DNA of 61,875 bases, filler included, from Choristocarpus tenellus KU-1152 (lineage: Eukaryota; Protista; Phaeophyceae): NCBI GenBank assembly GCA_964200185.2. It is 11 parts of 11 records of this genome, joined end to end, with 100 filler letters (N's around TTAATTAATTAA, not from the genome) between each part and the next. Parts side by side here need not be neighbours in the genome. Positions count along the whole stretch, not along the records: positions 39,454 to 44,975 come from CAXNAD020010536.1; 10 more parts are not named here. One strand, given 5' to 3'. The translations under genes and the position numbers were made by a program. Below the pieces are notes generated by a model. It had not been told where the DNA came from and ran no database searches. It worked only from the letters and a program-made list of their open reading frames with translations. Below are positions 4,159 through 58,475 of the stretch, piece after piece. How positions within the stretch are numbered: the stretch's first letter is position 1; each line of letters opens with the position of its first letter.

Positions 4159-4701
4159 GTGAACCTCATTGAATAAGATTCATGCCATAACCCAATTTAG
4201 TTGGGCAGGATTAACTACGTAGTCGTAGATAGGGCCCCTTATGTCATGTACTGAGGTAATAAGTTTATTTGTTGTCTCCCTGTCCTATAGGTGTAGCAAT
4301 ACTCAACCCGAACTCTAACTCTAACTAATTTTTCATGCTAGCAGTGCTAGCACTAAACGTTGTAGGCCACAATTTCTCAAATTGTCTTGATTAGGTGGGA
4401 ATGGTACACTCACATCTGTGTTGGAGTGCGTTGAAACAATTTATTGTTGCTCTGATCTCTTTGGATTAAAATCTCTATCGGCCCCCCTGTCCCCCTTATA
4501 TTATACCCAAGCTGGGGGTAAGAATAACCACTTATCAAATGCACTTAAAAGTATCATGTGACCTAGATGGTACTGCTTTGGTTGAGGACCATCATAAACA
4601 ATATATTTTAACACTTGGGATGCCCAGCTTTGGGTTCAGTGAAATTGAGTAGTGACAGGATGCCAAGAACTGTGGCTTGTTGCTTTCCACACCCCTAATA
4701 T

Positions 4702-9035: not shown

Positions 9036-9488
9036 TGTGGAGGAAGCCAGGAATTTCGGGAATATGGTTAGATAACGAGATAACCACATAAATTTACTAA
9101 CGTTGGCATCAAGGTTGTGAAAATGGTTCCACTTCAAACGAAAATATATCAAACACACTTTATGCTGATTTTCACATATTATTATTCTCTCATCATGTCA
9201 CAACAGTAATAAAATATTTATTATTATATTATGCCTTATAACGTTTTGTCTATGCGTCAAAAAAAAAGTTAACCAATATTTATCAATAGTAGTAGAGTAA
9301 GAGAGATTATCTCATCATCATAATATCCCAAAAGAGAATAATATTGTTTCAAGGAAAATATCTTTGACAAAATGTAGACCACTTACTACCGACCGCATAT
9401 GAGCAACTACCGACCGCCAGACTACAACCTCAAAATTTGTTGTAATGGATGTAATATACTCCATCAAACACTACTTGTTTGATTGAGG

Positions 9489-11250
9489 ATGAAGGTACCG
9501 CTGAGCCTCTCCTCGGCTGTATCTCGTGGAGTATTGTGCATCTCCTCAGGAAGAATTGTTTCTCGATCTACGTGTTCCCGCTACCTCGGCACCGTCGAGT
9601 GCTCCAAATTTCGAAGTCATTGTACCATGGAAATCGACGTTGCCCATGTAAGGTCTGACATGTTAGACCTCACTACTGTGCAATTCAACAACGCTGGAGA
9701 CTCACCAATGCCCAGGCCAGTGCTTGAGCGGGTCAATGCGCACCTTGATTTGGAAGCGCGAGTCGGAGGCTACGAAGCAGCAGCGAGGGTTGAGAATGAG
9801 CTCCAGGAGGTGTATGTCTCTGCTGCAGACATCATCAACGCAGATTCTCAAGACATTGCCCTGCAGGTGAGAATTTGTAGAAAGATGCTCGCTGGCCCAT
9901 GCGTCAGGGTGTATAGTTTCTTGTGTGTGCCTTTTTGATGGGTAAGTGAGGACAACTGGCTCTCTGCAAGACAAAGTCGTGTCCAGTTTGGCCAGCTGTT
10001 CAACACTGGCACCGAGATTCCCCAGGGATTTACCCGCTCTTCACTGCATACGTTTACCAGCTATACGCCACCCAATTCCCTCGATATACACAGGAGAGTG
10101 CGAGTATGGCCTGGGCCAAGGCTTTTTACGCCGTCGCGAAGGGGTTGCGGCCTGGAGATCGCATCCTTACTGGTATGGCGGAGTATGCAGCTAATTACGT
10201 GGCAATGCTCCAGGTACACCGTTGTGGGTGCAGCTTTCCTTCTTACGCAAGTTACTCTCTCTAGTGCCTACATCCCCTCGTTGCTAAACAGTTTGAATGG
10301 CAATGTTCACTATGAATCCATCCATCTGCGCCGCCCTTCTTAACTTGTACTCGACGATCTAATGCACAGTTAATTCAAACATACTCGATTGCTCCCCTCG
10401 CTTGCAGCTCAGCCCTATGATGATTAGAAGTATACTACTGTTGTACTAAGCCTCGTGCTACGAACGACAAAGATCTTTTTCAACATACCTTGGGGGGTTG
10501 TGATTATGAATGAAAAGTTGTCACTGGTTTGTAGTCCCAGCACAAAATTACACAAGTACCGCCACTGTCCCACGGCTATCAGTTTAAAACCCCATCCAAC
10601 CCTCCACCTCCTTCCTTGCTCTTGCCATTGTCAATATTTCTGCAGGTTTGTCGGTCCACTGGTGCACGAGTGGAGACAATACCCTCTGACGCCCAGGGGG
10701 AGCTTGACTTGTTAGCGATGGAAGCTATGCTTGGGAAAGGTGGAGTGAAGCTGGTTGCAATAACCCACGTTCCATCTAATGGAGGGGTTGTCAACCCAGC
10801 AAGCGAAGGTGTGCAGCACATGCCCCCTGCAGGACTCCCCTTTTGGATAAAACCAAAGGTATCTGCTAAATCTTGAGTACAACATCGAGCAATTATTATG
10901 TCCTTTCATTGTGGGGATGGATGTTGGCTTGCCCTTTCCTGCCAACTTTGTGAACAGTTCTTTTCAGGAACAAGACAGTAAGCGTCGCATAAGGACATGC
11001 TCATCTCATTTTAGCGTGACACAGCCATAGGTGACTCGCGTGCCTTAACGCAATCTTGTGCTTTCTTCTCTGCTGCCAGTCGGAGATCTGTGCCGAAAAC
11101 ACGGAGATATCCTCTACCTCCTCGACTCTTGCCAATCCATAGGACAGATGGATGTGGACGTGAAACGCATCGGCTGTCACATGCTCTGCGCAACGGGCAG
11201 AAAGTACATCCGTGGGCCGAGAGGGACCGGCTTTCTGTACGTTTCCAAAG
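9489..11250 (+). CDS. Class V PLP-dependent aminotransferase / C-S lyase (bacterial-type, EgtE/cysteine desulfurase-like), partial, spliced
   Basis: Exons 9489-9866, 10094-10213, 10646-10808, 11080-11250 join in phase. Motifs [48 protein letters not shown] and [18 protein letters not shown] (PLP lysine). Ser/Arg-rich N-terminal extension of ~46 aa. Confidence 0.93.
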
Positions 11251-33100: not shown

Positions 33101-34131
33101 AATAGGGATGTCCACACCTACTGTGGTAGATAGCATTTTCCAGTTCGTATAGCAAAGAACTAGGAAAGAAGTTTGTCAGGTCCTTTGGTCGCCCACCTTT
33201 CTCTCACCTGAGCCTCCACACTGGTGAAGAACTTGGAGCACTTCCTCAGCTCACTTTTTAGCACTGTCAATATGCAACACATCGACACCAGAGGGGAAGC
33301 GATTACTTCGATGCATAATGCTCCCTTCCGTTGGCACTCCAATAAAGGATACACAGGCATGACAAAAAAGCACGACATCGATCTAACGACAACTGTCTCA
33401 GCCGTCTAAGTGAACTCTGAGAACTGAAGGCAGACCAAAATAAGCAGACATCTACACTAACAAAGTGAAGACAGCTCTTACGGGAACCATGAGAATACTA
33501 AGCCTAAGATAAACGCTAAGTGGATCGGCTCTCATTGTCTTCCTGTGTATGGACGTTGAGGGGCTATCCATCCACCAACATAGTCAGGTGGTGGTGCTCA
33601 ACGAGGTCACGTAGGCGAAAACAACTGGGTACGGACTGGCGGTCAACCCGATAGACATGATCCTATACTGATCCTTATTTTTCTCATTTTCCATCTCTCC
33701 ATTCATCACCTCTATACTATTCCACCCTCCTTCCCTCCCTCTGACCCCTTCCACAATTGCACCAATCAGGAATCGTAGTAATACTTAACACTTGTAGAAA
33801 GCCACCTCCCCATTTGACTGAGCAATTGCCTCCGGGACAGTCCTGGTGACCACGGTATCGACCCCATTATTCTGGTTTGTGGACTCCAGAGCCTGAGGAG
33901 ACGAAGTTGTTTGGGGGGGGAATGCTAGAAACTCCTGAAATTGAGGCTGGGGACATTGCTCAAGTCCAGCAATGTAGAACCGCAAAAATATTGGGATACT
34001 TGAATTATAAGACTCGTAAATTGGTCCCTCACCTTTATCTTTTTCTTAAGGAACTTGTAGTTTATCCAGAAAGGCGCCCACTCAGGATCAGATAGCTCTA
34101 CCACCCTCGCGAGATTCTTACCAAACTTCAT
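30167..34131 (-). CDS. SPX-domain protein (phosphate / inositol-pyrophosphate sensor), spliced
   Basis: Phase-consistent exons 34131-34033, 33892-33790, 33263-33208, 31909-31710, 31061-30914, 30255-30167. Motifs MKFGK..PEWAPFWINYKFLKKKIK, EVAFYKLLKSELRKCSKFF, LLLLENYAIMNYCGLSKILKKHDKITG. Last exon uncertain (possibly 30033-30012). Confidence 0.95.
31474..31580. repeat. (TACA)n microsatellite in SPX intron
   Basis: Direct inspection; shorter run at ~31145-31180. Confidence 0.95.
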
Positions 34132-36165: not shown

Positions 36166-36840
36166 GCATACTCGAATCAATAGCCTTCAACCCCCATATG
36201 TCAACCTACTCCAACTCCTGACGGAAGAGCTTTGAGCTCGCTCCAATTACCAATGCAGAAGCAGGTTTGACATCCCATTTGTAGAGGGGCAACAGGGGCT
36301 ACAGAGCGGCTACAGAGCGGACAGAGTATATGCACGTACTAGAGGTATAGGAGGGAGTTTGCACTCCTGGTGTCATAACCCTGATGTTGGCATGCAGGCT
36401 AAGATATGCATCAAGTGCAAATAACATTATCGTAAAGGGTGCAAGCCAACTGACTGGATCTAGTACCCTAGTGAGTCAAAGCAAACAAGAGGTAACCCAG
36501 AGTCGCTTTCCAAGGGTGCTGGACATGATGTATGTGCAAAATGCAACTTTTTTTTTACAGATGCATGTAGGAAATCTTCCGAATTCTGTTGAAAATTCTT
36601 CAACAATTAAAGAAATTAAATGCTCTCAGGCCGAACTCAGCGCTTCTTCATCCATAAAAATAATAGAAAAAAATATGAATGAATTGCAAAAGACTGAAAA
36701 AAATACACAAAAAAAAAAAAAAAAAACGCCCGAAATCTGGATACCTCTCGTTTACTTTGACTCATGGTGCCAAAAAATAAAATAAAAATAAAAAATATAT
36801 ATATATATATATTCCCAGTTCTGTTGCAAAGTAAAAAGAT

Positions 36841-39331: not shown

Positions 39332-39974
39332 CCCCCAATTTTTTTCCTTTTTTNNNNNNNNNNNNNNNNNNNNNNNNNNNNNNNNNNNNNNNNNNNNTTA
39401 ATTAATTAANNNNNNNNNNNNNNNNNNNNNNNNNNNNNNNNNNNNNNNNNNNNCCGACCCCCCCCCCCCAGATACTTTGACCCTTCAACCACGGAAATAA
39501 GGGTGAATTACGAAAGATGAAAAAGTGGATTAAATATAAAATGGTTGAAGTCTGGGTACCTTTTTCTTTGGCTCAAAAAGATGCAGGAAAACTGACTGTA
39601 CACGCACCTCCAACAACTGGGAAATCATTCTCCTCTTCTGTCTCCACACGCTTTCTCCTTCGCTGTCTTCTTCTGACTTTTTTCTCTCCTGCTTCAGATC
39701 GCGATCTATATGGTTCTGTGGGTTCGAGTAATGATCTATGTTTTTATTGAAGCTGGAGACAAGTCAGGTAAATAGAAAAGGAGTACGAAGGAGAAAGCTC
39801 CGAGACAGAAGAGTAGAGAAAATCTCACACCACCAATATTGCTGGACGGTCAGAGTTGACAATTACCACAAGACACAAGTTTGATCGCTCTCTGTCAGGG
39901 TACCAAAAAAAAAAATTGTGGGCAGAAGAAACCGATGATGGCACATGTATAAATTATTACCCCTTCCAAGCTAA

Positions 39975-40245
39975 TCAAGTGGGTGACGAGCTAGGGAAGC
40001 ATTACAAGAATCTGACAAGCCCCTTCTTACCCGTCTGTTTGGTGTCTCTAGCTTGGAACTCATGACACCACTCGAGAGAGCCACTTATGTGCTGACGACG
40101 AACACTATTTGTCGTAAGCGGGATTTGACAGTCCTCCACGTCATGTGTAGTCAAAATATATATATATACTCGCTTGCCGAGCTGCCCAAAACGTTCCACC
40201 TCGAAGGGTGTTGAGGTTAAAACTACGAGGATCAACAGAATCTTC
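39975..40245 (-). mobile_element. CRE-like LINE 3' remnant
   Basis: SVDPRSFNLNT / FEVERFGQLGK (frameshifted) followed by the same gatgcttccctagctc-type 3' motif. Confidence 0.65.
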
Positions 40246-41312
40246 TTAGTGGGTGCGTTTTCGCACCTGAGCTGTAGTAGGAGCTACACCATTGCTGGTG
40301 GATGGGTGTGGCAGATAGGAGGCTGTTTGCACTTCTGGAAATGCAATATCCTGAAAGAGGCCTTTGTCTTGGTAAGGACCCAATCCACCAGACATACATT
40401 CAATAGATCTCTTTATACTTAGGCGATAGATTGTTATACTATTGTTGTAATTTAAGATATACAGACTATGCAAAGAAGTATGGTATCAGTAAAATATATT
40501 CCCAAGTCAAGACTGTTTGAAACGAGAACTTTGCTGATTATCAAATGCATTTACTACACAATAATAGGCAAAAATCATTTCATGGCATTATGGGATTTGT
40601 TCTGCGCTCCTGTGAAGGTCACAAGAAGGCCCTTCGCCACTAAGACAAAGGTGATAGCTAACATTTGTGGACCAACGACGACTAGGAGCAAATCTTATGT
40701 CCAGCATTGCTACCAATAGTGTACTGCCCAATAACGGGTTGGGAGGCTTGATGGTTTTAATAAAACGGGTTGTGAATATATGGACCACTCTAGTTTACCA
40801 AATGCATTATGTATCTAAGTTCGAAAAGGTCTAATAGGACCCAAATCCCTATATATACACACACATAGTAATACACGTATAATATTACTTTAATTTTGGG
40901 GGTTAGGGTTAGGGATTGGATTACCGCCATTTATATGTTATTGCGTTGGATATAAAAAAAGGGATATGGCTACTTCCAGATCGCTTGAGTCCTGTTTCAA
41001 GAAGAGATAACAAAGAATTTAGTACTAGACAGGATTAGTGTTCAGCAGCTGTCGCAAAGTCTTCGTTAGAGTGCATACATGCTTCCGTAGACAACTATAA
41101 CGGTATAGCTCTGTTGAAAAAACGTAGGGCTGGTCTTGAGAGAGCAAAGCGAAATTAAAATCAAAGCAACATAATGGTGACTTTGTTTGGGGGGCGCTAT
41201 TATCGCTTGTCTAGAAACTGCGTGTAAAATGCAAACTACAGTTTCTCCCTCCCTGAAGAGGAATCCTTTGCGCGAATTAAAAAATTCCACTTGCCCTTCC
41301 AATAAATAAAAA

Positions 41313-41728
41313 GAGTCAAACCAATTGAGAGGTAGGCAAGGTTGCCAAAATCAAGCACAATTAGAATTGATCAAGTAACTTACTCAGTTCCTAGCAGGTT
41401 AATTGGTTATAACTTAAGAGCGTATATCTATCAGGGAGAAATTAAGTTGTACTATGGAACTCAGTTAGTTTGTGAGATGCCTAAAATAGATAAATCAAAG
41501 ACTTTTTTAGGATGCCTGGAAAGGGCAAGAAGACGCCATTATGTACAATTCCGGTAAGAGCCTTGTTGAATTGTGGTGTTACTTTGTGTGTGGAAAGGGG
41601 GAATCTCAATTTTGTGCACACTATGGTGCACATGAAGCAACGAAATAGTGTATATTGCACATGGTAAGAAATATACCTTAGAATGCAAAAGGGTCCAAAC
41701 CTGCCTGCCTCTAAATTGGCTTGGACTC
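41313..41728 (-). mobile_element. MITE family B copy (GAG...CTC) carrying a ~155-bp insertion
   Basis: TIRs GAGTCAAACCAATTGAGAGGTAGGCAAGGTT / AACCTGCCTGCCTCTAAATTGGCTTGGACTC; flanks AAAA / AAAG (imperfect 4-bp TSD). Interior 41501-41728 aligns with the reverse complement of 53819-54040. Confidence 0.85.
41346..41500 (+). pseudogene. istA: Fragment resembling bacterial IS21-family transposase IstA (C-terminal beta-barrel)
   Basis: Stop-free KSSTIRIDQVTYSVPSRLIGYNLRAYIYQGEIKLYYGTQLVCEMPKI carries the 'STI....YSVPSRLIG..l...iy....i.lyyG' IstA signature; roughly 32% GC by hand count. Confidence 0.8.
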
Positions 41729-43963
41729 AAAGTTTATTCCCACAACATGTGTTAGGTATTTTTCTTTGGGGCACATTTTGACCCTCCTGGCCTAACACCC
41801 ATATTAACAGGGCCAGTCCAGTTTAAATTGACTTTTCCCCCATGGGTGTCAATTATTTAACATGGCCAGGTCGTGGGGAGGCCCAGTACCAATATGTTCT
41901 GACAAGACCCGTCCATAGGTGTTAACTGTTTCAATACGTCGGTCATGGCCTAGGCCCTGGCCATGGTAACGGTACAAACTGACTAAAATCCCTGAAAAAA
42001 TGGCTATTCATGACTGGGTAGCTGGCTACATGTGTCGTTGAAGCGATGTAATCTGCTCAACTACAAGCTGTTTGATATCTTCAGATATCAGGAGGATCAA
42101 CTAAGGGTACCCTGAGGCATCACTTAGGGATACTCGGCTTTGGTTGCTCCCACACAGAGTAGGAGAGTATTTCTTGACGGTATTTGACTTGGCCTGCCCT
42201 TGTTACTCTCAGGAAACTGAATGTTGTTTATTGTCAGCTGGCACTGTTTTTCTCCCTCTATCTGCACTCAATGTTTGCATTGTGATCGTGTTGCTCTTGA
42301 GGCGTGGTTGAGTGTAATTTGTGGTTGTCTCGACGAGAACCAGTTTGCAATCCACTCTCTCCTGCCACTCGAAGCATCAACAAAAAGTGAGGGTAACATT
42401 CAAAAGTCTACGTGGGTCCGTAAGGGTAAGGACTTCCCTTAATCGAGCCTTCCAATAAGTACAAGACATGGTTGGGATGAAACCTGTGGGATATGCACTC
42501 TGTTCAACACAACCAGGAGGACCGAGTTGGGAGTGTGCCCTACACATTTTTTTTTTCTTTGTTCGTATCTGGTCTTCATACGAACATCAAGCATGCTTTC
42601 TTTTACCCCCTCTGGGTGCCCCTTGCAACAGCACCCTCTTGTGTGTCTGGTCCCTGCACCGCATGCCACAAATAGTTTGTCTACTATTTGTCCGTACAGA
42701 ATTAAACGCACTGAGACAAACAAATGGCAACAATCCTGTTGAGCAATAGTAGTATTATTACATACTGCTGTGTCTCACATTTGCCAACCATATTTGACTA
42801 CTGATGAACTTCGGTGACTAAGATGGCGTACTGCAGGCCTCTCTCATAAGTCCAAATATGTATGCAGGTAGCAAAGGGGAGTTGTGCGAGGTAATATAAC
42901 TGTGATTGCCAGAACAAAAAGAACAGCGAGTGTGTTCTGGGGGGAAAGGTTAGTAGAAGAACATGCGTCACCAAGCTGTCACAGTGCTTCAGCACACCAG
43001 GATAAAAGACAGGGAGGGGGAAGGACCGCATGTGGACTGCGCTTGGGGGGAATGAGGATTTTCCCGCCACCTAGTAGCAGTCACAATGATTCAGGAGCAC
43101 TATGAGAAGAGGGGTATAAGGGGGTTGTGCCTGAGTAACAGGGGTGACTTGTGCCACACAGGTGCCTATCCTTACCTGCCATGTAGAAAGAGATGACCTA
43201 CTTCTAAACGTACTTACATGGCTTCGACCTTCAACACGGACTTTGGGTTGGCAATGAAGGCAGGATGAGTTAAGTTTGTCCAACATATAAAATACGTGAT
43301 TGGACCAACCATTCCCTCATTTTTGAATGGCCTCCGAAAATTTATGATAAATATCTACCACCCTCCTTGATGCATCTTCGTTTTGTGCGTGGGTTGGTGT
43401 TTAGGAGTACCTATCGTGAGAAGGTTACTTCTACATTCGGAGGGTCTGTTTTGTGGTGGTGAGGAGTGGGGAAAGAGGATAGATTTTGTGTGGTGTGTAT
43501 GGGAAGACATAGATTTGTTGATCCATAGAACAGGTCAATCGGCCCGATACGATTACAATTCAAAATACAAATTACACAACTCTAAAAAATGTAGAGAAAA
43601 GAATGTGGTTTGATCTGTGATCCGTTGCAACGTTGTAACTGGTGTCACTTTCAAACGTTTTATCCACAAATAACTTAACAATCAACACAACCGCATTTAC
43701 CTCGAAAAAATTCGGAAAAAATCCAGTACAAAGTATAGACCGCTTCATTTCATGAAAAATGAAGTAGTTCGGGATTCTGTTTGAGGTGTAATCATTGATT
43801 GTGTGTGAATATTATACAGGGGTTGGGCGTTGGGTAAATGTCGCCTAATCACCAATAGTTGGTAGGGGATCTGTAACCTGTTTGACGTGGAGGGAGTGAT
43901 ATTGGGGGTGTTTCTCTCGTATCAAAGTTCTTGGGGATTTGTTGAGGGGTAAGTATTTACAGA

Positions 43964-44912
43964 ATGGGGGGTGAGGTGCTGTTTGGGGGTGTAGTTGTTG
44001 CACCCCACTGTGTCAACAATGAAGCGGAGAAGCCTATTAACAACACTCGGCAAGGGAAGACCCCTTTGTTAGCGAGGGCCCGCTTATCCTTTCGTTCGTT
44101 GTTCCCGAGTAAAAGGTATGTCAACAGCGTTGAACTCGAAGCCATGTGCCAGCATTTTCTTACCCGTCTCCACTCCCACTCCACATTTCACGGTGAAATG
44201 TTCCTTCATGGCAGCCGTAGCCACAATTCGAACGGGGACGGTATTCTAGTACCACTTCTCATATGAAGATTAGGTTAATATTTGTTTGCTTCTGTCGTTG
44301 CATACAAGACTTGATGGTAGTGATGTGGTCTCTAATGTGCAGATACCCCAAGAACGCGACGTCCAAAAACCATGGCATTCAAGCTACCCCACCATCCTCT
44401 GAAGCTGGAAACATTGAAGGGAGCGGTGGGTTTGGTGGTGACACGCCGAAGGCAAATGCCACCGAGTCAAAATGTGCATCGTCCTCACCTCCTGATGAAG
44501 GTGATCAGCCAAGACAGCCTCTCAGCAGAACTGGAATAGCAGCAGCTCGGACCGTAGCCAGCGCGAAACACGCCTGTCGACCAAGACTCAGGCCAAAGGT
44601 TAAGGTGAGATAAGTTTTGGTTGTTTCCCAATATTTTATTAGGCGGGCATTAATTTTCTCTCCTCCACAAAGGTAGTCTAGTTCATTCGCTATTGAGTCC
44701 TTTGCCTTTCTTTTTCATTCCTCAAAGATTTGGAAATATGAATACGCTTTACTGGACCCTCTAGTGTGCATTTGATTTCTTTAGGTTCTACGCCATATCT
44801 AATCTCTCCCTGTCCTGTCCCCATTTGTTGATCTGGACAGTCAGCGCAAATGAAGTACATTCTCCTTTTCTCTCTCCAGCAGAAGTTGGGAAAATTTCTT
44901 GACGACCAACAG
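43964..44912 (+). CDS. 5' exons of an unidentified spliced gene
   Basis: An exon ending AAAAG|GTATGT (~44116) joins in phase to 44343-44605 (..RPRLRPKVK|GTGAGA), then a polypyrimidine/CAG acceptor at ~44879 (QKLGKFLDDQQ). No family recognised. Confidence 0.4.
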
Positions 44913-45075
44913 GTAGAACTGCAAGGTGTACCATTGGTCAAAAATATCAATATCCTTCCAATCCCCCCCCCCCCCNNNNNNNNNNNNNNNNNNNNNNNNN
45001 NNNNNNNNNNNNNNNNNNNTTAATTAATTAANNNNNNNNNNNNNNNNNNNNNNNNNNNNNNNNNNNNNNNNNNNN

Positions 45076-46438
45076 GTAAAGGATAGGAGGGCAGGGGATT
45101 TGATGAAAATATTGGGGGTGTTGGGGATAGCAGGGGAATGGTTATTCGCAGCGGAACACGTAGCGGGTAAGCAGAATGACTTAGCAGATGGCATTTCAAG
45201 GTGGAAGAGGGATGAGATTCAACTTAGCCTCCAACGTATTTGCCCACGCATTGACTGGCAGGAGCAGCCCCTGGGTCGGGAAGGGAAGATGGTGTGTTTG
45301 AGTGCCTTGCAGCAGTGTACGCCAGAGGATCGGTTGCACCATCTACTCAGAAGTGCTATGAAGCAGCTGGGGACCAATGGTCTGAGTTCCGCACATATAG
45401 GGGATTGAGTAGGTGGTTAGACCCTGGGAGTAGAGAGAGATAGAGGTTGTAAAGGCCCTAGCGGAGTTCATGTGTTTCTGTTGTGGAAGTAAGGGGAATC
45501 AAGTAAGTACAGTGAAGGGTAAGATAGCAGCAATCCAATACTACCATAAACATTTCCTCAACTTACAGCTTCCCACACAACATTTCATGATCCAATCTGT
45601 ACTCAAAGGAATAGGGAGGAGTCACACAAAGGAGGAAGCGAGCCCAGGAAGAGGAGACCTCTAACGTGGAGAATGATTGTAGAGACAAAGCAATGCACTG
45701 AAATGTTAGGTAGGGAAGGTAAATTGGCAAGGCTAGGTCTGGGTTTCTCGCTCTTCTTTCTAGCTAGAGCCTCAGAATTGTAGGCCTATGACGAAGGGGG
45801 AGGAGTTCATGGGGATTTCGCTGTAAGAAGGAGGGACGTGGTATGGAGGAGGGGAGTTAAAAGATTAAGTTGGGAAGAGAGACACCAGGAAGAAAAACTA
45901 GAGTAATATTCACAGGGTCAAAAGGGGACCAGGGTAGAAAAGGAGCAGTGCTGACAAGATATAAGGTAGGGAAGGAAGGGGGAGAAGAAAGTATGGGAGG
46001 ATGGGAAGTAGTTATGGATATTACGGAATGTTTCCCAGAACCCCCCCGGATGCCCCTCTGATGACATGTAGGCAGGAAGGGGGATAGAGAGTGATTACGA
46101 GGGGCCAAGCAACATGTGTTTTGAGGAGGATAGCCAAAGAACTTAGGTTAAGACCAGAAGAGTATGCCTTGCATTCGGGTAGGATAGGGGGAGCCACGAG
46201 ATTGGCAAGCAAGGGAGTATTAGAATTAGTAATACAGCGGGAAGGAAGATGGAAGTCGAGGGCTTTTATGATATATGTAAGGGCAAACCAGAAGGACCCA
46301 GTGTCAGTGTCAAAGGGCTTGGCAGAGAGTAGGAAGGATTGGGTACAACCAGGTCAGGAGGTAACGGGGATGAGATCAAAGAAATCAACCCCGAAAGGGG
46401 AGGGGAGGTCAGGTTACGGCGGGGTAGATGTCTTCTAG
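45076..46438 (+). mobile_element. DIRS/Ngaro-type tyrosine-recombinase retrotransposon, 3' part, decayed
   Basis: RNase H end AEHVAGKQNDLADGISRW; overlapping YR frame SVAPSTQKCYEA..W..F, FFLARASEL, GSKGDQ, YALHSGRIGGAT, IQREGRWKSRAFMIYVR (catalytic R-K-H-R-W-Y). Several stops and frameshifts. Confidence 0.92.
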
Positions 46439-47278: not shown

Positions 47279-47538
47279 GAGTGAAAGTATCTTAGAGGGT
47301 ACGAGATTTGCCCTGTTTGTCCATTTGGGGGTTGGCTTCCCATTTTTTTTTTAAATTACATTTTCCTACTCCAAAATGTTTAAGCGTAGATAAAATGTAT
47401 ACGTCATGAAAAGGTGTGTCCGAAACATAGATATTGACACTTCCTAGCTAACACGTCAGCCAAAATTACATCAAAATCACAACATTGGATTTTGACCCGC
47501 AAAAGGACACGGCTCTACCCTCTAAGATACTTTGGCTC
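47279..47538 (+). mobile_element. Complete 260-bp MITE, family A (Sola2-like)
   Basis: TIRs GAGTGAAAGTATCTTAGAGGGTA / TACCCTCTAAGATACTTTGGCTC; perfect 4-bp TSD AATG. Confidence 0.93.
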
Positions 47539-47681
47539 AATGTGTAGCGACAATACGTAACTATTACCTACATATACAGACAAGAGATGTAACAAACGTT
47601 GAATATAAAATATTTCATTCAATGACCTCTTCTTGACAAAGCTTCAAAAATCCCTTGTTCTCTTCACAACATAGATGTAAA

Positions 47682-47941
47682 GAGCCAAAGTATCTTAGAG
47701 GGTAGGGCTGTGTCCATTTGGGGGTCAAAATCCAATGTTACGATTGTGATGTAATTTTGGATATTGTGTTAGTTAGGAGGTGTCAATCTTCTTGTTTCGG
47801 ACACACATTTTCATAACATACACATTTTTCCTATTCCAAAACATTTTGGAGTAGGAAAATGTAATAAGAATACACCATGGGAAGCAAAGCCCCAAATGGA
47901 CAAACAGGGCAAAACTCGTACCCTCTAAGATACTTTCACTC
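47682..47941 (-). mobile_element. Complete 260-bp MITE, family A, inverted
   Basis: Same TIRs in opposite orientation; perfect 4-bp TSD TAAA. Confidence 0.93.
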
Positions 47942-48228
47942 TAAAAGTCTCTCGGACATCATCACATCGAAAAGTGTATCTAGTCGGCCAGAAGAGAGTT
48001 CGCAAATGAAGAGTAAGTACCTCCAGAAAATATTTCGCCTCTGGCAGGGTCCATGACTAGCTAACCAGGCAGAGGACCTTTTTTGGCTCGCCCAATGCGT
48101 GAAGCGCATTGCTTGAATATGATCTAGTACGTAGAAGCCGATTTAGTAATAAATTTTGAATTCACAACGCAAAAGAACATGAACGAAGGATGCAGGAAGA
48201 GAAACTACTCCCTCTTTCCCAAAAGTCT

Positions 48229-53818: not shown

Positions 53819-54077
53819 GAGTCAAACCTATTCGGAGGTAGGCAGGTTTGGATCCTTTTTGTACTCTAAGCCAACTTTCCCACCCCGTGCAATACACTCT
53901 ACCTCATTGCTTTATGTGCACAATATTCACGTATAATTGCTATCCCCCCATTCCACATATTGAATTACACCAAAATTCAGCAAAGGCTCTTCCTGTAATT
54001 GTACAAAATTGCATATTATTACCCTTTCTGGGGATCCTTGAAATGCAACCCTGCCTAGCTCTCAGTTGGTTCGACTC
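53819..54077 (+). mobile_element. Complete 259-bp MITE, family B ('empty' reference copy)
   Basis: TIRs GAGTCAAACCTATTCGGAGGTAGGCAGG / CCTGCCTAGCTCTCAGTTGGTTCGACTC; perfect 4-bp TSD AGAA. Confidence 0.9.
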
Positions 54078-56245: not shown

Positions 56246-56458
56246 GAGCCAAACCAATTGAGAGGTAGGTAGGTTTGGAACCTCTTCTATTCAAAGTACT
56301 CTTTCTTACCCTATCGAGTACACCCTAGTTCATTGGTGTATGTCAACAATAGTGTACGCAAAAATTGATATTCCCCCTTTCCACGCATGAAGTGTCACCA
56401 TAATTCATCAAATGCCCTTCCTGGAATTGTGGAAAATGTCATATTTTTACTCTTTCTC
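56246..56458 (+). mobile_element. MITE family B copy lacking its right TIR
   Basis: GAGCCAAACCAATTGAGAGGTAGGTAGGTTTGG start; colinear with the 53819 copy for ~210 bp, then diverges. Confidence 0.8.
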
Positions 56459-57789: not shown

Positions 57790-58475
57790 TCCATAACCCT
57801 CGTTACTCCACCAACCATGATTGAGGTGCCAGAAACACTCCCAGGCAATAAGGATGTGGGTCCCGATTTTCTTCCACATAAGATCTTAAGGCTGGGCCTA
57901 CAGGGCATGTGGCTTTCCTCCAGGGATTCCATAAGATTGTGTTGGCTGTGTGGAACCAAGGAGTCGTCTCACTGGTCTCTAAAGAGGCGGTCATCATCGT
58001 GCTCTACAAGAACGTCAGCATTGATTATCACAACTATAGGGGCACCCCATTGGTGGCATATCCTGGCAGAGTCCTCAAATTTGTTGCATGGGGGGTGGGG
58101 GATTGCCAGGAACAGGAGAACATCCTTCTTGATGAACAGTGTGGTTTCCGTCCCCGACGCTCCAGAGCGGACATGATGTACACTGTACGTGCCCTCCAAG
58201 ACCTTGGCGGGGAGAAGCATATATCCCTATTCACGAGTTTGATCAATCTGCATAAAGCATGTATTGGTTTTAACCTCCTATGGGTCGTCCTGTCCAAATT
58301 TGAAATATATCCAAAGATGATCTCTGTTATCCTTCAATTTCATTATATGAGGGCATGTGTTCATTTGCATAGATGAGGATGAGTATACGGACTGGTTCGA
58401 GGTTGAACAGGGTCTTCGGTGAGGGTATGTTCTTGGTCCTATGCCCTTTAACATCTTCTTCACTACATTTCTAAT
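57790..58475 (+). mobile_element. Decayed RTE-type LINE reverse transcriptase
   Basis: GNKDVGPDFLP..FHKIVLAVW..IIVLYK..NYRGTPLV..DEQCGFRPRRS..LFTSLINLHKA..WFEVEQGLR*GYVLGPMPFNIFF (RT domains 0-4), with frameshifts and stops. Confidence 0.92.

What the first reader, a model, noticed from the sequence alone, without database searches (positions are those of the whole stretch)
41313..41728. Bacterial IS21 transposase fragment captured inside a eukaryotic MITE
Seen: this MITE copy is 416 bp, while its TSD-flanked sister at 53819-54077 is 259 bp. The extra ~155 bp (41346-41500) sits directly inside one TIR, between GGTTGC and the (A)TTT..AGGAT.CC that are contiguous in the empty copy. The insert is stop-free, AT-rich (~32% GC) and has AAATCAA near both ends. 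Known: its translation carries the YSVPSRLIG signature of the IstA C-terminal domain; IS21 is a prokaryotic family. Inference: DNA from an AT-rich, possibly intracellular bacterium entered the host nucleus recently and was packed between mobilisable TIRs, making a Pack-MULE-like vehicle for foreign DNA and a trace of an unrecognised symbiont.
Basis: partly seen in the sequence, partly recalled or inferred. Interest (0 to 1): 0.78.

Follow-up and report, generated by a model that had tools for sequence, protein, structure and literature searches.

The report
Bacterial transposon scrap patches algal chromosome
A 157-base piece of a bacterial jumping gene, identical to copies in environmental bacteria, sits inside one old miniature transposon in what is likely a brown alga's nuclear genome; it was likely pasted in recently during repair of a DNA break, likely from a bacterium living inside the alga's cells, and it shows no sign of having moved or of doing anything.

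Summary
Positions 41346-41502 (157 bp) are codons 318-369 of an IS21 istA gene: 157/157 identical to a contig from an unrelated rhizosphere run, 156/157 to a complete istA-istB element. Removing them leaves 259 bp, exactly the sister MITE's length. Contigs crossing both junctions occur in two runs of the host at about single-copy depth, and no empty allele was seen. They reach 30 nt into the insert, one short of the tool's bridging rule; raw reads were not available. The Pack-MULE reading fails: the target duplication is 4 bp, the cargo is not amplified, and the MITE copy differs from its family majority at 18 of 146 sites while the insert is unmutated, so the insert arrived long after the MITE. 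Best reading: NUMT-like filler captured at a chromosome break. Relatives of this IS lie in protist endosymbionts: a Ca. Megaera plasmid (IS end, 90-93%), a Rickettsiaceae genome (IstA 83%) and a 1.2-Mb genome with ATP/ADP translocases. Further IS sequence is present in both host runs. It is a real, very young, functionless transfer, useful mainly as a pointer to an undescribed symbiont.

The parts
41309..41312 (.). left 4-bp target-site copy AAAA (right copy 41729-41732 reads AAAG, 3 of 4)
   Evidence: sequence; 4-bp length inferred from the sister's perfect AGAA/AGAA
41313..41345 (+). left TIR of the MITE (GAG.. terminus), cut off from the last 2 nt of the 35-nt arm by the insert
41346..41502 (+). 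157-bp fragment of a bacterial IS21 istA gene (nt 950-1106 of 1470; codons 318-369, Mu-transposase C-terminal domain); no IS ends, no istB
   Evidence: PF22483 E 8e-10; 157/157 to the X3 contig, 156/157 to X7 and L002, 155/157 to L001; offsets
41336..41554 (+). 73-codon open frame that contains the insert; in-frame stop at 41333, the only ATG at 41477 (26 codons): not a gene
41503..41728 (+). MITE body and right TIR (41695-41728; 27 of 34 columns match the left TIR, one 1-nt insertion near the tip)
   Evidence: family-wide differences
53819..54077 (-). empty sister MITE, 259 bp, 35-nt TIRs (77% complementary), AGAA target duplication
   Evidence: TIRs pair in the fold, z -2.14, 4 of 200 shuffles as good
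56246..56457 (-). third copy of the family, one TIR only, truncated or interrupted on the side that carries the insert in the loaded copy

Best explanation
A 157-bp internal piece of a bacterial IS21 transposase gene lies, unmutated, at the inner edge of one TIR of an old single MITE copy in what is likely a brown algal nuclear genome; it was likely captured recently as filler when a chromosome break was repaired by end-joining, and likely came from an intracellular bacterium of the Megaira/Rickettsiaceae type. Shown: the identity and limits of the fragment; a net-lossless junction (0 bases lost, or a single C duplicated); no IS ends or IS21-type duplication; junction sequence in two host runs at single-copy depth; an age contrast with the MITE; more of the same IS in both host runs. 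Inferred: end-joining as the mechanism, the intracellular lifestyle and name of the donor, and lack of function. Multi-copy IS DNA is a likely thing to be captured simply because it is over-represented in symbiont DNA (inference).
For: Real junctions: contigs 41311-41375 (depth 28.9 in X1, 5.4 in X2) and 41473-41596 (31.7, 5.5), 0 mismatches, against flank depths 17.6-22.7 and 6.4-7.2; no joint skipping the insert at 99% likeness. Even if the 5 non-crossing words of the left contig carried the depth of the preceding node, crossing words average at least 22 (X1) and 3.1 (X2). Clean insertion: the empty length equals the sister's, 259 bp; donor flanks differ from the window at the first base on both sides. 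Youth: 0/157 changes against X3 (95% upper bound 1.9%) versus 18/146 majority differences in the MITE body (Fisher p 1e-6; with 14 strict sites against 2/157, p 0.001, counted from the 40 of 84 rows shown). Donor type: the right end of the same IS is 90-93% identical at 2 places (190 nt) and 90% at a third (80 nt) on a Ca. Megaera polyxenophila plasmid, 1 of 72,556 plasmid records. An IstA named Rickettsiaceae is 83% identical. The only GTDB genome found with the IS (G001) is 1.2 Mb and has TLC translocases, as do 21 of 31 genomes of its family and 0 of 14 controls. NUMT insertions by NHEJ are often lossless (54% in PMC2567098, abstract).
Against: The junction contigs hold 30, not 31, letters on the insert side, so the tool does not count them as bridging. 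Only contigs were seen, no raw reads (X21 is another organism, 0 reads laid). X1 and X2 come from one study and may be one strain. The host contig (39454-44975) has no recognisable gene (0 of 21 frames hit Pfam), and the species label comes from another contig of the window. Some close IstA/IstB relatives are labelled as free-living taxa (Hydrococcus, Dolichospermum, Methylopumilus MAGs), and G001 is gamma- rather than alphaproteobacterial. The insert-to-junction depth ratio is nearly the same in both runs (2.0 and 2.2), which would also fit a second nuclear copy as the immediate source. Landing within 3 nt of a TIR's inner edge has only about a 5% chance for a random hit in the element.
Confidence: 0.66

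Rival explanations
1. The patch was copied from a larger tract of symbiont DNA already integrated elsewhere in the nucleus (templated filler), so the extra IS sequence in the host runs is nuclear and no living donor need be present.
For: IS sequence continues past both ends of the insert in separate contigs in X1 and X2. The insert-to-junction depth ratio is about 2 in both runs, as a fixed nuclear copy would give. IS elements inside larger transferred symbiont fragments are known (PMC3673617, passage).
Against: The extra depths are not additive (X1: 69 upstream, 101 downstream; X2: 9 and 4, plus a T>C variant at 12.3 that is also the common allele in the unrelated run X4). This looks like a mixed IS population. 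No other long bacterial match was found in 19.7 kb of the window against 31 genomes, or in the host contig against plasmids.
Confidence: 0.13
2. The insertion is real, but the donor was a free-living or surface-attached bacterium rather than an intracellular one.
For: Near-identical IstA/IstB proteins sit in MAGs named Hydrococcus, Dolichospermum and Methylopumilus; exact or near-exact DNA occurs in unrelated environmental runs.
Against: Those labels are on short, IS-sized contigs in metagenome bins, where misbinning is common (inference). The one finished record with this IS end is an algal endosymbiont's plasmid. The best plasmid hits from cultured bacteria are only about 40% identical.
Confidence: 0.09
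3. MITE-driven capture: the element itself broke or was repaired at its TIR, perhaps at a hairpin, took up the fragment, and can carry it to new sites.
For: The insert lies 2 nt from the inner end of the 35-nt TIR arm, near the base of the stem that the TIRs form in the sister's fold. The family is very large (2,319 contig pieces laid in X1). Cargo-bearing non-autonomous DNA transposons exist in Ectocarpus (PMC12477816, passage).
Against: The loaded form is single-copy by depth. The copy is 10-12% diverged from the family majority, with a damaged right TIR and an imperfect TSD, while the cargo is pristine. One case cannot show a site preference.
Confidence: 0.07
4. Artefact: a library or assembly chimera between algal DNA and a contaminating bacterium's IS.
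For: The insert is identical to bacterial DNA, and the same IS is present in both host runs. Identity to a known IS is a recognised warning sign (PMC3673617, Methods).
Against: Both junctions exist as 31-letter words in two samples at about single-copy depth, independent of the window's assembly. No empty allele was seen. There is no shared word at either junction that could mis-join a graph.
Confidence: 0.05

Closest known systems
NUMT/NUPT-type and endosymbiont-derived nuclear insertions (end-joining filler DNA)
   Same: Short internal piece of foreign cytoplasmic DNA, no transposon ends, little or no target loss, near-100% identity to the donor, single copy (PMC2567098 abstract for NUMT junctions; IS inside transferred symbiont fragments, PMC3673617 passage).
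   Different: The donor is a bacterial IS gene rather than organelle DNA, the host is likely a brown alga, and the landing site is a MITE TIR edge.
IS21 family (istA + istB)
   Same: The donor element L002 is a full member: 489-aa IstA, 261-aa IstB, 66-nt TIRs with a doubled 17-nt repeat, TG..CA ends.
   Different: The window holds 157 of about 2,480 nt, from the middle of istA, with no ends, no istB and no 5-bp duplication: derived from IS21, but neither an IS21 element nor an IS21 transposition product.
Pack-MULEs
   Same: A gene fragment between the TIRs of a non-autonomous DNA transposon.
   Different: TIR 33-35 bp and TSD 4 bp, against long TIRs and 7-12-bp TSDs (PMC10741241 passage); cargo bacterial, not host; not amplified; cargo much younger than the carrier.
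IS607 elements in eukaryote genomes (Gilbert and Cordaux 2013, PMC3673617)
   Same: Prokaryotic IS sequence in a eukaryote, including one case in Ectocarpus.
   Different: Those are diverged, often whole ORFs, and all IS607. Their screen kept only hits flanked by eukaryotic proteins, and none was near-identical to a known IS, so a case like this one would have been filtered out.
Sola-superfamily non-autonomous elements (for the MITE)
   Same: 4-bp TSD and short TIR (PMC10741241 passage); Sola-1 and Sola-2 occur in Ectocarpus (PMC12477816 passage); GAG..CTC termini fit Sola (recalled, no call).
   Different: No transposase was found in the window, and the TSD length rests on one perfect and one imperfect copy.

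Membership tests
IS21 (the insert as an element) | IstA homology | tested here: met
   PF22483 E 8e-10; 51/51 aa identical to 3 of 403 fetched proteins, including the full IstA P0256
IS21 (the insert as an element) | istA and istB between TIRs | tested here: not met
   tblastn of IstA and IstB and blastn of L001/L002 against the whole window give only 41346-41502
IS21 (the insert as an element) | about 5-bp direct repeats from transposition (PMC10122671 passage) | tested here: not met
   at most one C duplicated at the junctions
IS21 (the donor element L002) | istA + istB, TIRs with internal repeats, TG..CA ends | tested here: met
Pack-MULE | MULE-type TSD of 7-12 bp and long TIRs | tested here: not met
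   4-bp AGAA TSD and 35-nt TIR in the sister
Pack-MULE | cargo from host genes | tested here: not met
   cargo is bacterial istA
Pack-MULE | cargo moves with the element (several loaded copies) | tested here: not met
   junction depth 28.9/31.7 against flanks 17.6-22.7 (X1) and 5.4/5.5 against 6.4-7.2 (X2); the next shared node (47-49) is accounted for by one other copy at 23. X1's values are 1.3-1.8 times the flanks, so a second copy is unlikely but not excluded; no whole genome was available
NUMT-like filler insertion | internal donor fragment without element ends, near-lossless junction | tested here: met
   nt 950-1106 of istA; empty length equals the sister's
NUMT-like filler insertion | physically joined to nuclear DNA in reads | tested here: inconclusive
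   junction contigs in 2 of 2 host runs at single-copy depth, but 30 rather than 31 letters on the insert side, and no raw reads
NUMT-like filler insertion | donor resides in the host cell | not testable with these tools
   IS flanks are present in both host runs but their genome could not be fetched; relatives lie in Ca. Megaera and Rickettsiaceae
MITE | short, non-coding, TIR-bounded, TSD-flanked, high copy | tested here: met
   259 bp, TIRs, TSD; 2,319 (X1) and 1,562 (X2) pieces laid, summed depth above 31,000 against about 20 (not a copy number)
Sola | 4-bp TSD | tested here: inconclusive
   perfect in 1 copy, 3 of 4 in the other
Sola | partner DDD transposase with the same TIR | not testable with these tools
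   no whole genome held; none among 109 of 187 frames scanned in the window

The most novel reading that the evidence does not exclude
This early-diverging brown alga currently hosts an undescribed Megaira-like intracellular bacterium whose DNA is still being patched into the nucleus. The genome holds many such donor-identical scraps, and they cluster at the inner edges of MITE TIRs because these break as hairpins. High-copy MITEs would then be entry points for symbiont DNA and a measurable first step of bacteria-to-alga gene transfer.
Probability: 0.12. Interest if true: 0.72.

Novelty: new member of a known kind. Interest (0 to 1): 0.4.

Why it matters
About 1% of brown algal genes are attributed to transfer, mostly from bacteria, and that screen excluded singletons to limit recent events (10.1101/2024.02.19.579948, passages). 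How bacterial DNA reaches the algal nucleus is therefore seen only through old, domesticated genes. Here is a zero-divergence event with both junctions readable, which points to end-joining as the route and to an intracellular bacterium as the source. Megaira-group symbionts have been inferred from sequence data in Nemacystus and one Ectocarpus (PMC10132079; 10.64898/2026.03.27.714854, passages), so one more host would extend a known pattern. The fragment itself has no plausible function. Its value is as a cheap lead: the host's reads should contain the donor, which makes the transfer rate and site preference countable.

Tried and rejected
MITE derived from the IS: rejected; the IS ends do not resemble the MITE TIRs, and the only other match is a 13-nt A-rich word at E 0.12. 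Insert part of the family consensus: rejected. Viral vector: a scan of viral contigs found 4 pattern matches, 0 confirmed. NCBIfam: 0 families for the two short peptides. Insert against plasmids by blastn: no match. Host contig against plasmids: no match. The insert and IstA were found in 1 of 31 genomes of G001's family/order, so that lineage is not a regular carrier. GC content could not show whether L001 is misbinned (33.5% against 31.7-38.2% for other G001 loci). 18 runs held a small share (0.07-0.09) of the 1.5-kb stretch; I laid 3 of them (X3, X4, X7) and all 3 matched only the insert; the other 15 are no evidence. X21 (another organism, 2% of reads) gave 0 reads: no test. No whole genome is held, so no census of copies was possible. 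Relatives of the Megaera plasmid's genome could not be searched. Four look-ups of earlier findings returned nothing. No structure prediction was run: the domain is already identified by near-identity to full-length IstA.

Full report
Setting. The window is not one chromosome stretch: it is a chain of small contigs joined by ten N44-spacer-N44 links. The finding lies in the 5.5-kb contig 39454-44975. No whole genome is held. An exon on another contig (9603-9869) is 100% identical over 78% of the query to an NCBI protein labelled Choristocarpus tenellus, a brown alga. The host contig itself has no recognisable gene (0 of 21 frames hit Pfam; 2 of 109 scanned frames of 187 hit anywhere in the window). 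Its nuclear nature rests on shared repeats and on read depth equal to that of other contigs carrying the MITE.

The MITE. 41313-41728 aligns with the inverted copy 53819-54077 at 74.6% over 224 nt, and with a truncated third copy from 56246 at 74.5%. The sister is 259 bp, with 35-nt TIRs and a perfect 4-bp duplication, AGAA. The loaded copy has AAAA/AAAG, and its right TIR matches the left at 27 of 34 columns, with a 1-nt insertion near the tip. The family is large: 2,319 contig pieces of run X1 and 1,562 of X2 lie on the 1.5-kb stretch at 80% likeness, with summed depth above 31,000 on the MITE body against about 20 on the flanks (not a copy number). 70 contigs in X1 and 58 in X2 leave the window at 41345 and continue in the empty form, so the insert is not part of the consensus. 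A 4-bp TSD fits Sola and not MULE (7-12 bp) (PMC10741241, passages); Sola-1 and Sola-2 occur in Ectocarpus (PMC12477816, passages). No partner transposase could be sought.

The insert. It spans 41346-41502, 157 bp. One frame of six is open and matches PF22483 (E 8e-10). The protein search returned 82 hits among 99 candidates, the best five 98-100% identical, many of them 476-489-aa proteins. At the DNA level it is 157/157 identical to a 2,452-bp contig of an unrelated rhizosphere run (X3), 156/157 to X7 and to L002, and 155/157 to L001. L002 is a complete IS21: IstA 489 aa, IstB 261 aa, 66-nt TIRs with a doubled repeat and TG..CA ends. The insert is nt 950-1106 of the 1,470-nt istA. Nothing else of the IS is in the window. 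IS21 transposition moves the ends and leaves 5-bp repeats (PMC10122671, passages), so this is not an IS insertion. The frame is preceded by a stop at 41333 and its only ATG would give 26 codons; no function is expected.

Is it real? At 99% likeness both host runs hold a 65-bp contig over the left junction (41311-41375; depth 28.9 in X1, 5.4 in X2) and a 124-bp contig over the right one (41473-41596; 31.7 and 5.5), with no mismatches and no joint that skips the insert. Flank depths are 17.6-22.7 and 6.4-7.2. This is what a graph of 31-letter words gives where it merges with the donor path (my inference); even under the least favourable split, the crossing words average at least 22 and 3.1. Limits: contigs only, both runs from one study, possibly one strain; the one raw-read run offered is another organism and gave 0 reads.

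Junction and age. Removing the 157 bp leaves 259 bp, the sister's exact length, at 199 of 263 identical columns. Donor and window diverge at the first base outside the insert on both sides. The join is either blunt with no loss, or involves one duplicated C. The MITE copy differs from the depth-weighted majority of its family at 18 of 146 positions (14 by a stricter cut), counted from the 40 of 84 rows shown. The insert differs from its best donor at 0 of 157 (Fisher p 1e-6; 0.001 for 14/146 against 2/157). A family majority is only a proxy for the ancestral state, but the contrast is large: the insert came long after the MITE. Lossless capture of foreign cytoplasmic DNA at breaks is the NUMT pattern (54% of events without deletion, PMC2567098, abstract only).

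Donor. In both host runs separate contigs carry the IS beyond the insert's ends (loose ends and extra depth), and X2 has a T>C variant at 41465 that is the common allele in the unrelated run X4. More of the IS is therefore in the sequenced material, in a bacterium or elsewhere in the nucleus. The insert-to-junction depth ratio is 2.0 in X1 and 2.2 in X2, which I cannot explain away and which keeps the nuclear-tract rival open. Evidence on the lineage: (a) the IS right end is 90-93% identical at two places (190 nt), and 90% at a third (80 nt), on a Ca. Megaera polyxenophila plasmid, the only hit among 72,556 plasmids; (b) an IstA named Rickettsiaceae is 83% identical, another 54%, and proteins at 55-58% lie on 1-2-kb contigs of Scytosiphon and Ectocarpus sp. 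12 assemblies, the latter reported to hold a Megaira-group symbiont (10.64898/2026.03.27.714854, passages); (c) the one GTDB genome found (56 pattern matches, 1 confirmed) is 1.2 Mb and has TLC translocases. Its RpoB scores best on gammaproteobacterial structures (organisms of the PDB entries other than E. coli recalled), and it belongs to a 31-genome order of 0.7-1.9 Mb in which 21 of 31 have TLC. This fits the description of UBA7916/Comchoanobacter relatives (PMC9418006, passages), though no name was given. The IS is in only 1 of those 31, and its neighbour IS21 on L001 is 69% identical to Rickettsia endosymbiont plasmids. Against: relatives also carry Hydrococcus, Dolichospermum and Methylopumilus MAG labels. 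The IS seems to circulate among endosymbionts of protists and algae; the exact donor is unresolved.

Pack-MULE reading. It fails on TSD, TIR length, cargo origin, copy number and age. What remains of it is position: the insert is 2 nt from the inner end of the TIR arm, about a 5% coincidence within the element, and the sister's TIRs do fold back (z -2.14). One case, noticed after the fact, cannot show a preference.

Relation to print. A 2013 screen of about 430 eukaryote genomes with 48 IS queries kept 80 sequences, all IS607; it required eukaryotic proteins in the flanks (PMC3673617: abstract, Methods and passages). Endosymbiont-to-nucleus transfer is known in ochrophytes (PMC6367104, abstract), and Megaira-group bacteria are known from brown algal data (PMC10132079, passages). 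Searches (listings only, plus the passages named) showed no report of an IS21 fragment in a brown algal nucleus or of a symbiont in Choristocarpus. Supplements were not read, and subscription papers are not in the library.

Verdict. This is a real, very young, single-copy and functionless piece of bacterial IS21 DNA in a decayed MITE, most likely end-joining filler from an intracellular bacterium: a new member of a known kind. Interest 0.4.

Noticed in passing
window, ten joins from 4923 to 57319: The window is a chain of small contigs joined by N44, a 12-nt spacer and N44; neighbours across these joins are not linked in the genome.
   Followed up: yes
window 9483-10873: Class V aminotransferase gene in pieces (likely exons), 100% to a protein labelled Choristocarpus tenellus, 57% to a EukProt protein; most of the other 46 hits look bacterial at 37-54%. 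Possible old bacterial transfer shared by brown algae.
   Followed up: partly
runs X1 and X2 on window 41346-41502: Insert depth is 2.0 and 2.2 times junction depth in the two runs, and IS flanking sequence is present in both; living donor versus further nuclear copies is unresolved.
   Followed up: partly
L011 3001-3190; W01 4493-4682, 33663-33852, 47904-47983: Unannotated right-end remnants of this IS21 on a Ca. Megaera polyxenophila plasmid, 90-93% identical.
   Followed up: yes
L001 2536-4648: A second, different IS21 (473-aa IstA, 235-aa IstB-like) head to head with the first; 69% DNA identity to plasmids of a Rickettsia endosymbiont.
   Followed up: partly
window 36473-36763: A 291-bp element with related GAGTC-ended inverted termini but no clear target duplication; perhaps a second family of the same superfamily.
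   Followed up: no
window 45100-46438: Frames that look like RNase H and tyrosine recombinase remnants of a DIRS/Ngaro retrotransposon (motifs recalled; no Pfam hit at the cut-off).
   Followed up: no
window 47279-47941: Long inverted repeat, 260-nt arms, 86% complementary, 143 nt apart: a fold-back element or long-TIR MITE.
   Followed up: no
window 57817-58376: Broken frames resembling a LINE reverse transcriptase (recalled; no Pfam hit).
   Followed up: no
window 41308-41320 and L002 2419-2431: A 13-nt A-rich word shared between the MITE's outer left end plus flank and the IS left-end region, E 0.12; taken as chance.
   Followed up: yes
L005 415-2853 (G001): An 812-aa protein with a split TLC translocase match and long insertions, next to a canonical TLC gene; similar long forms in G005 and G020.
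   Followed up: no
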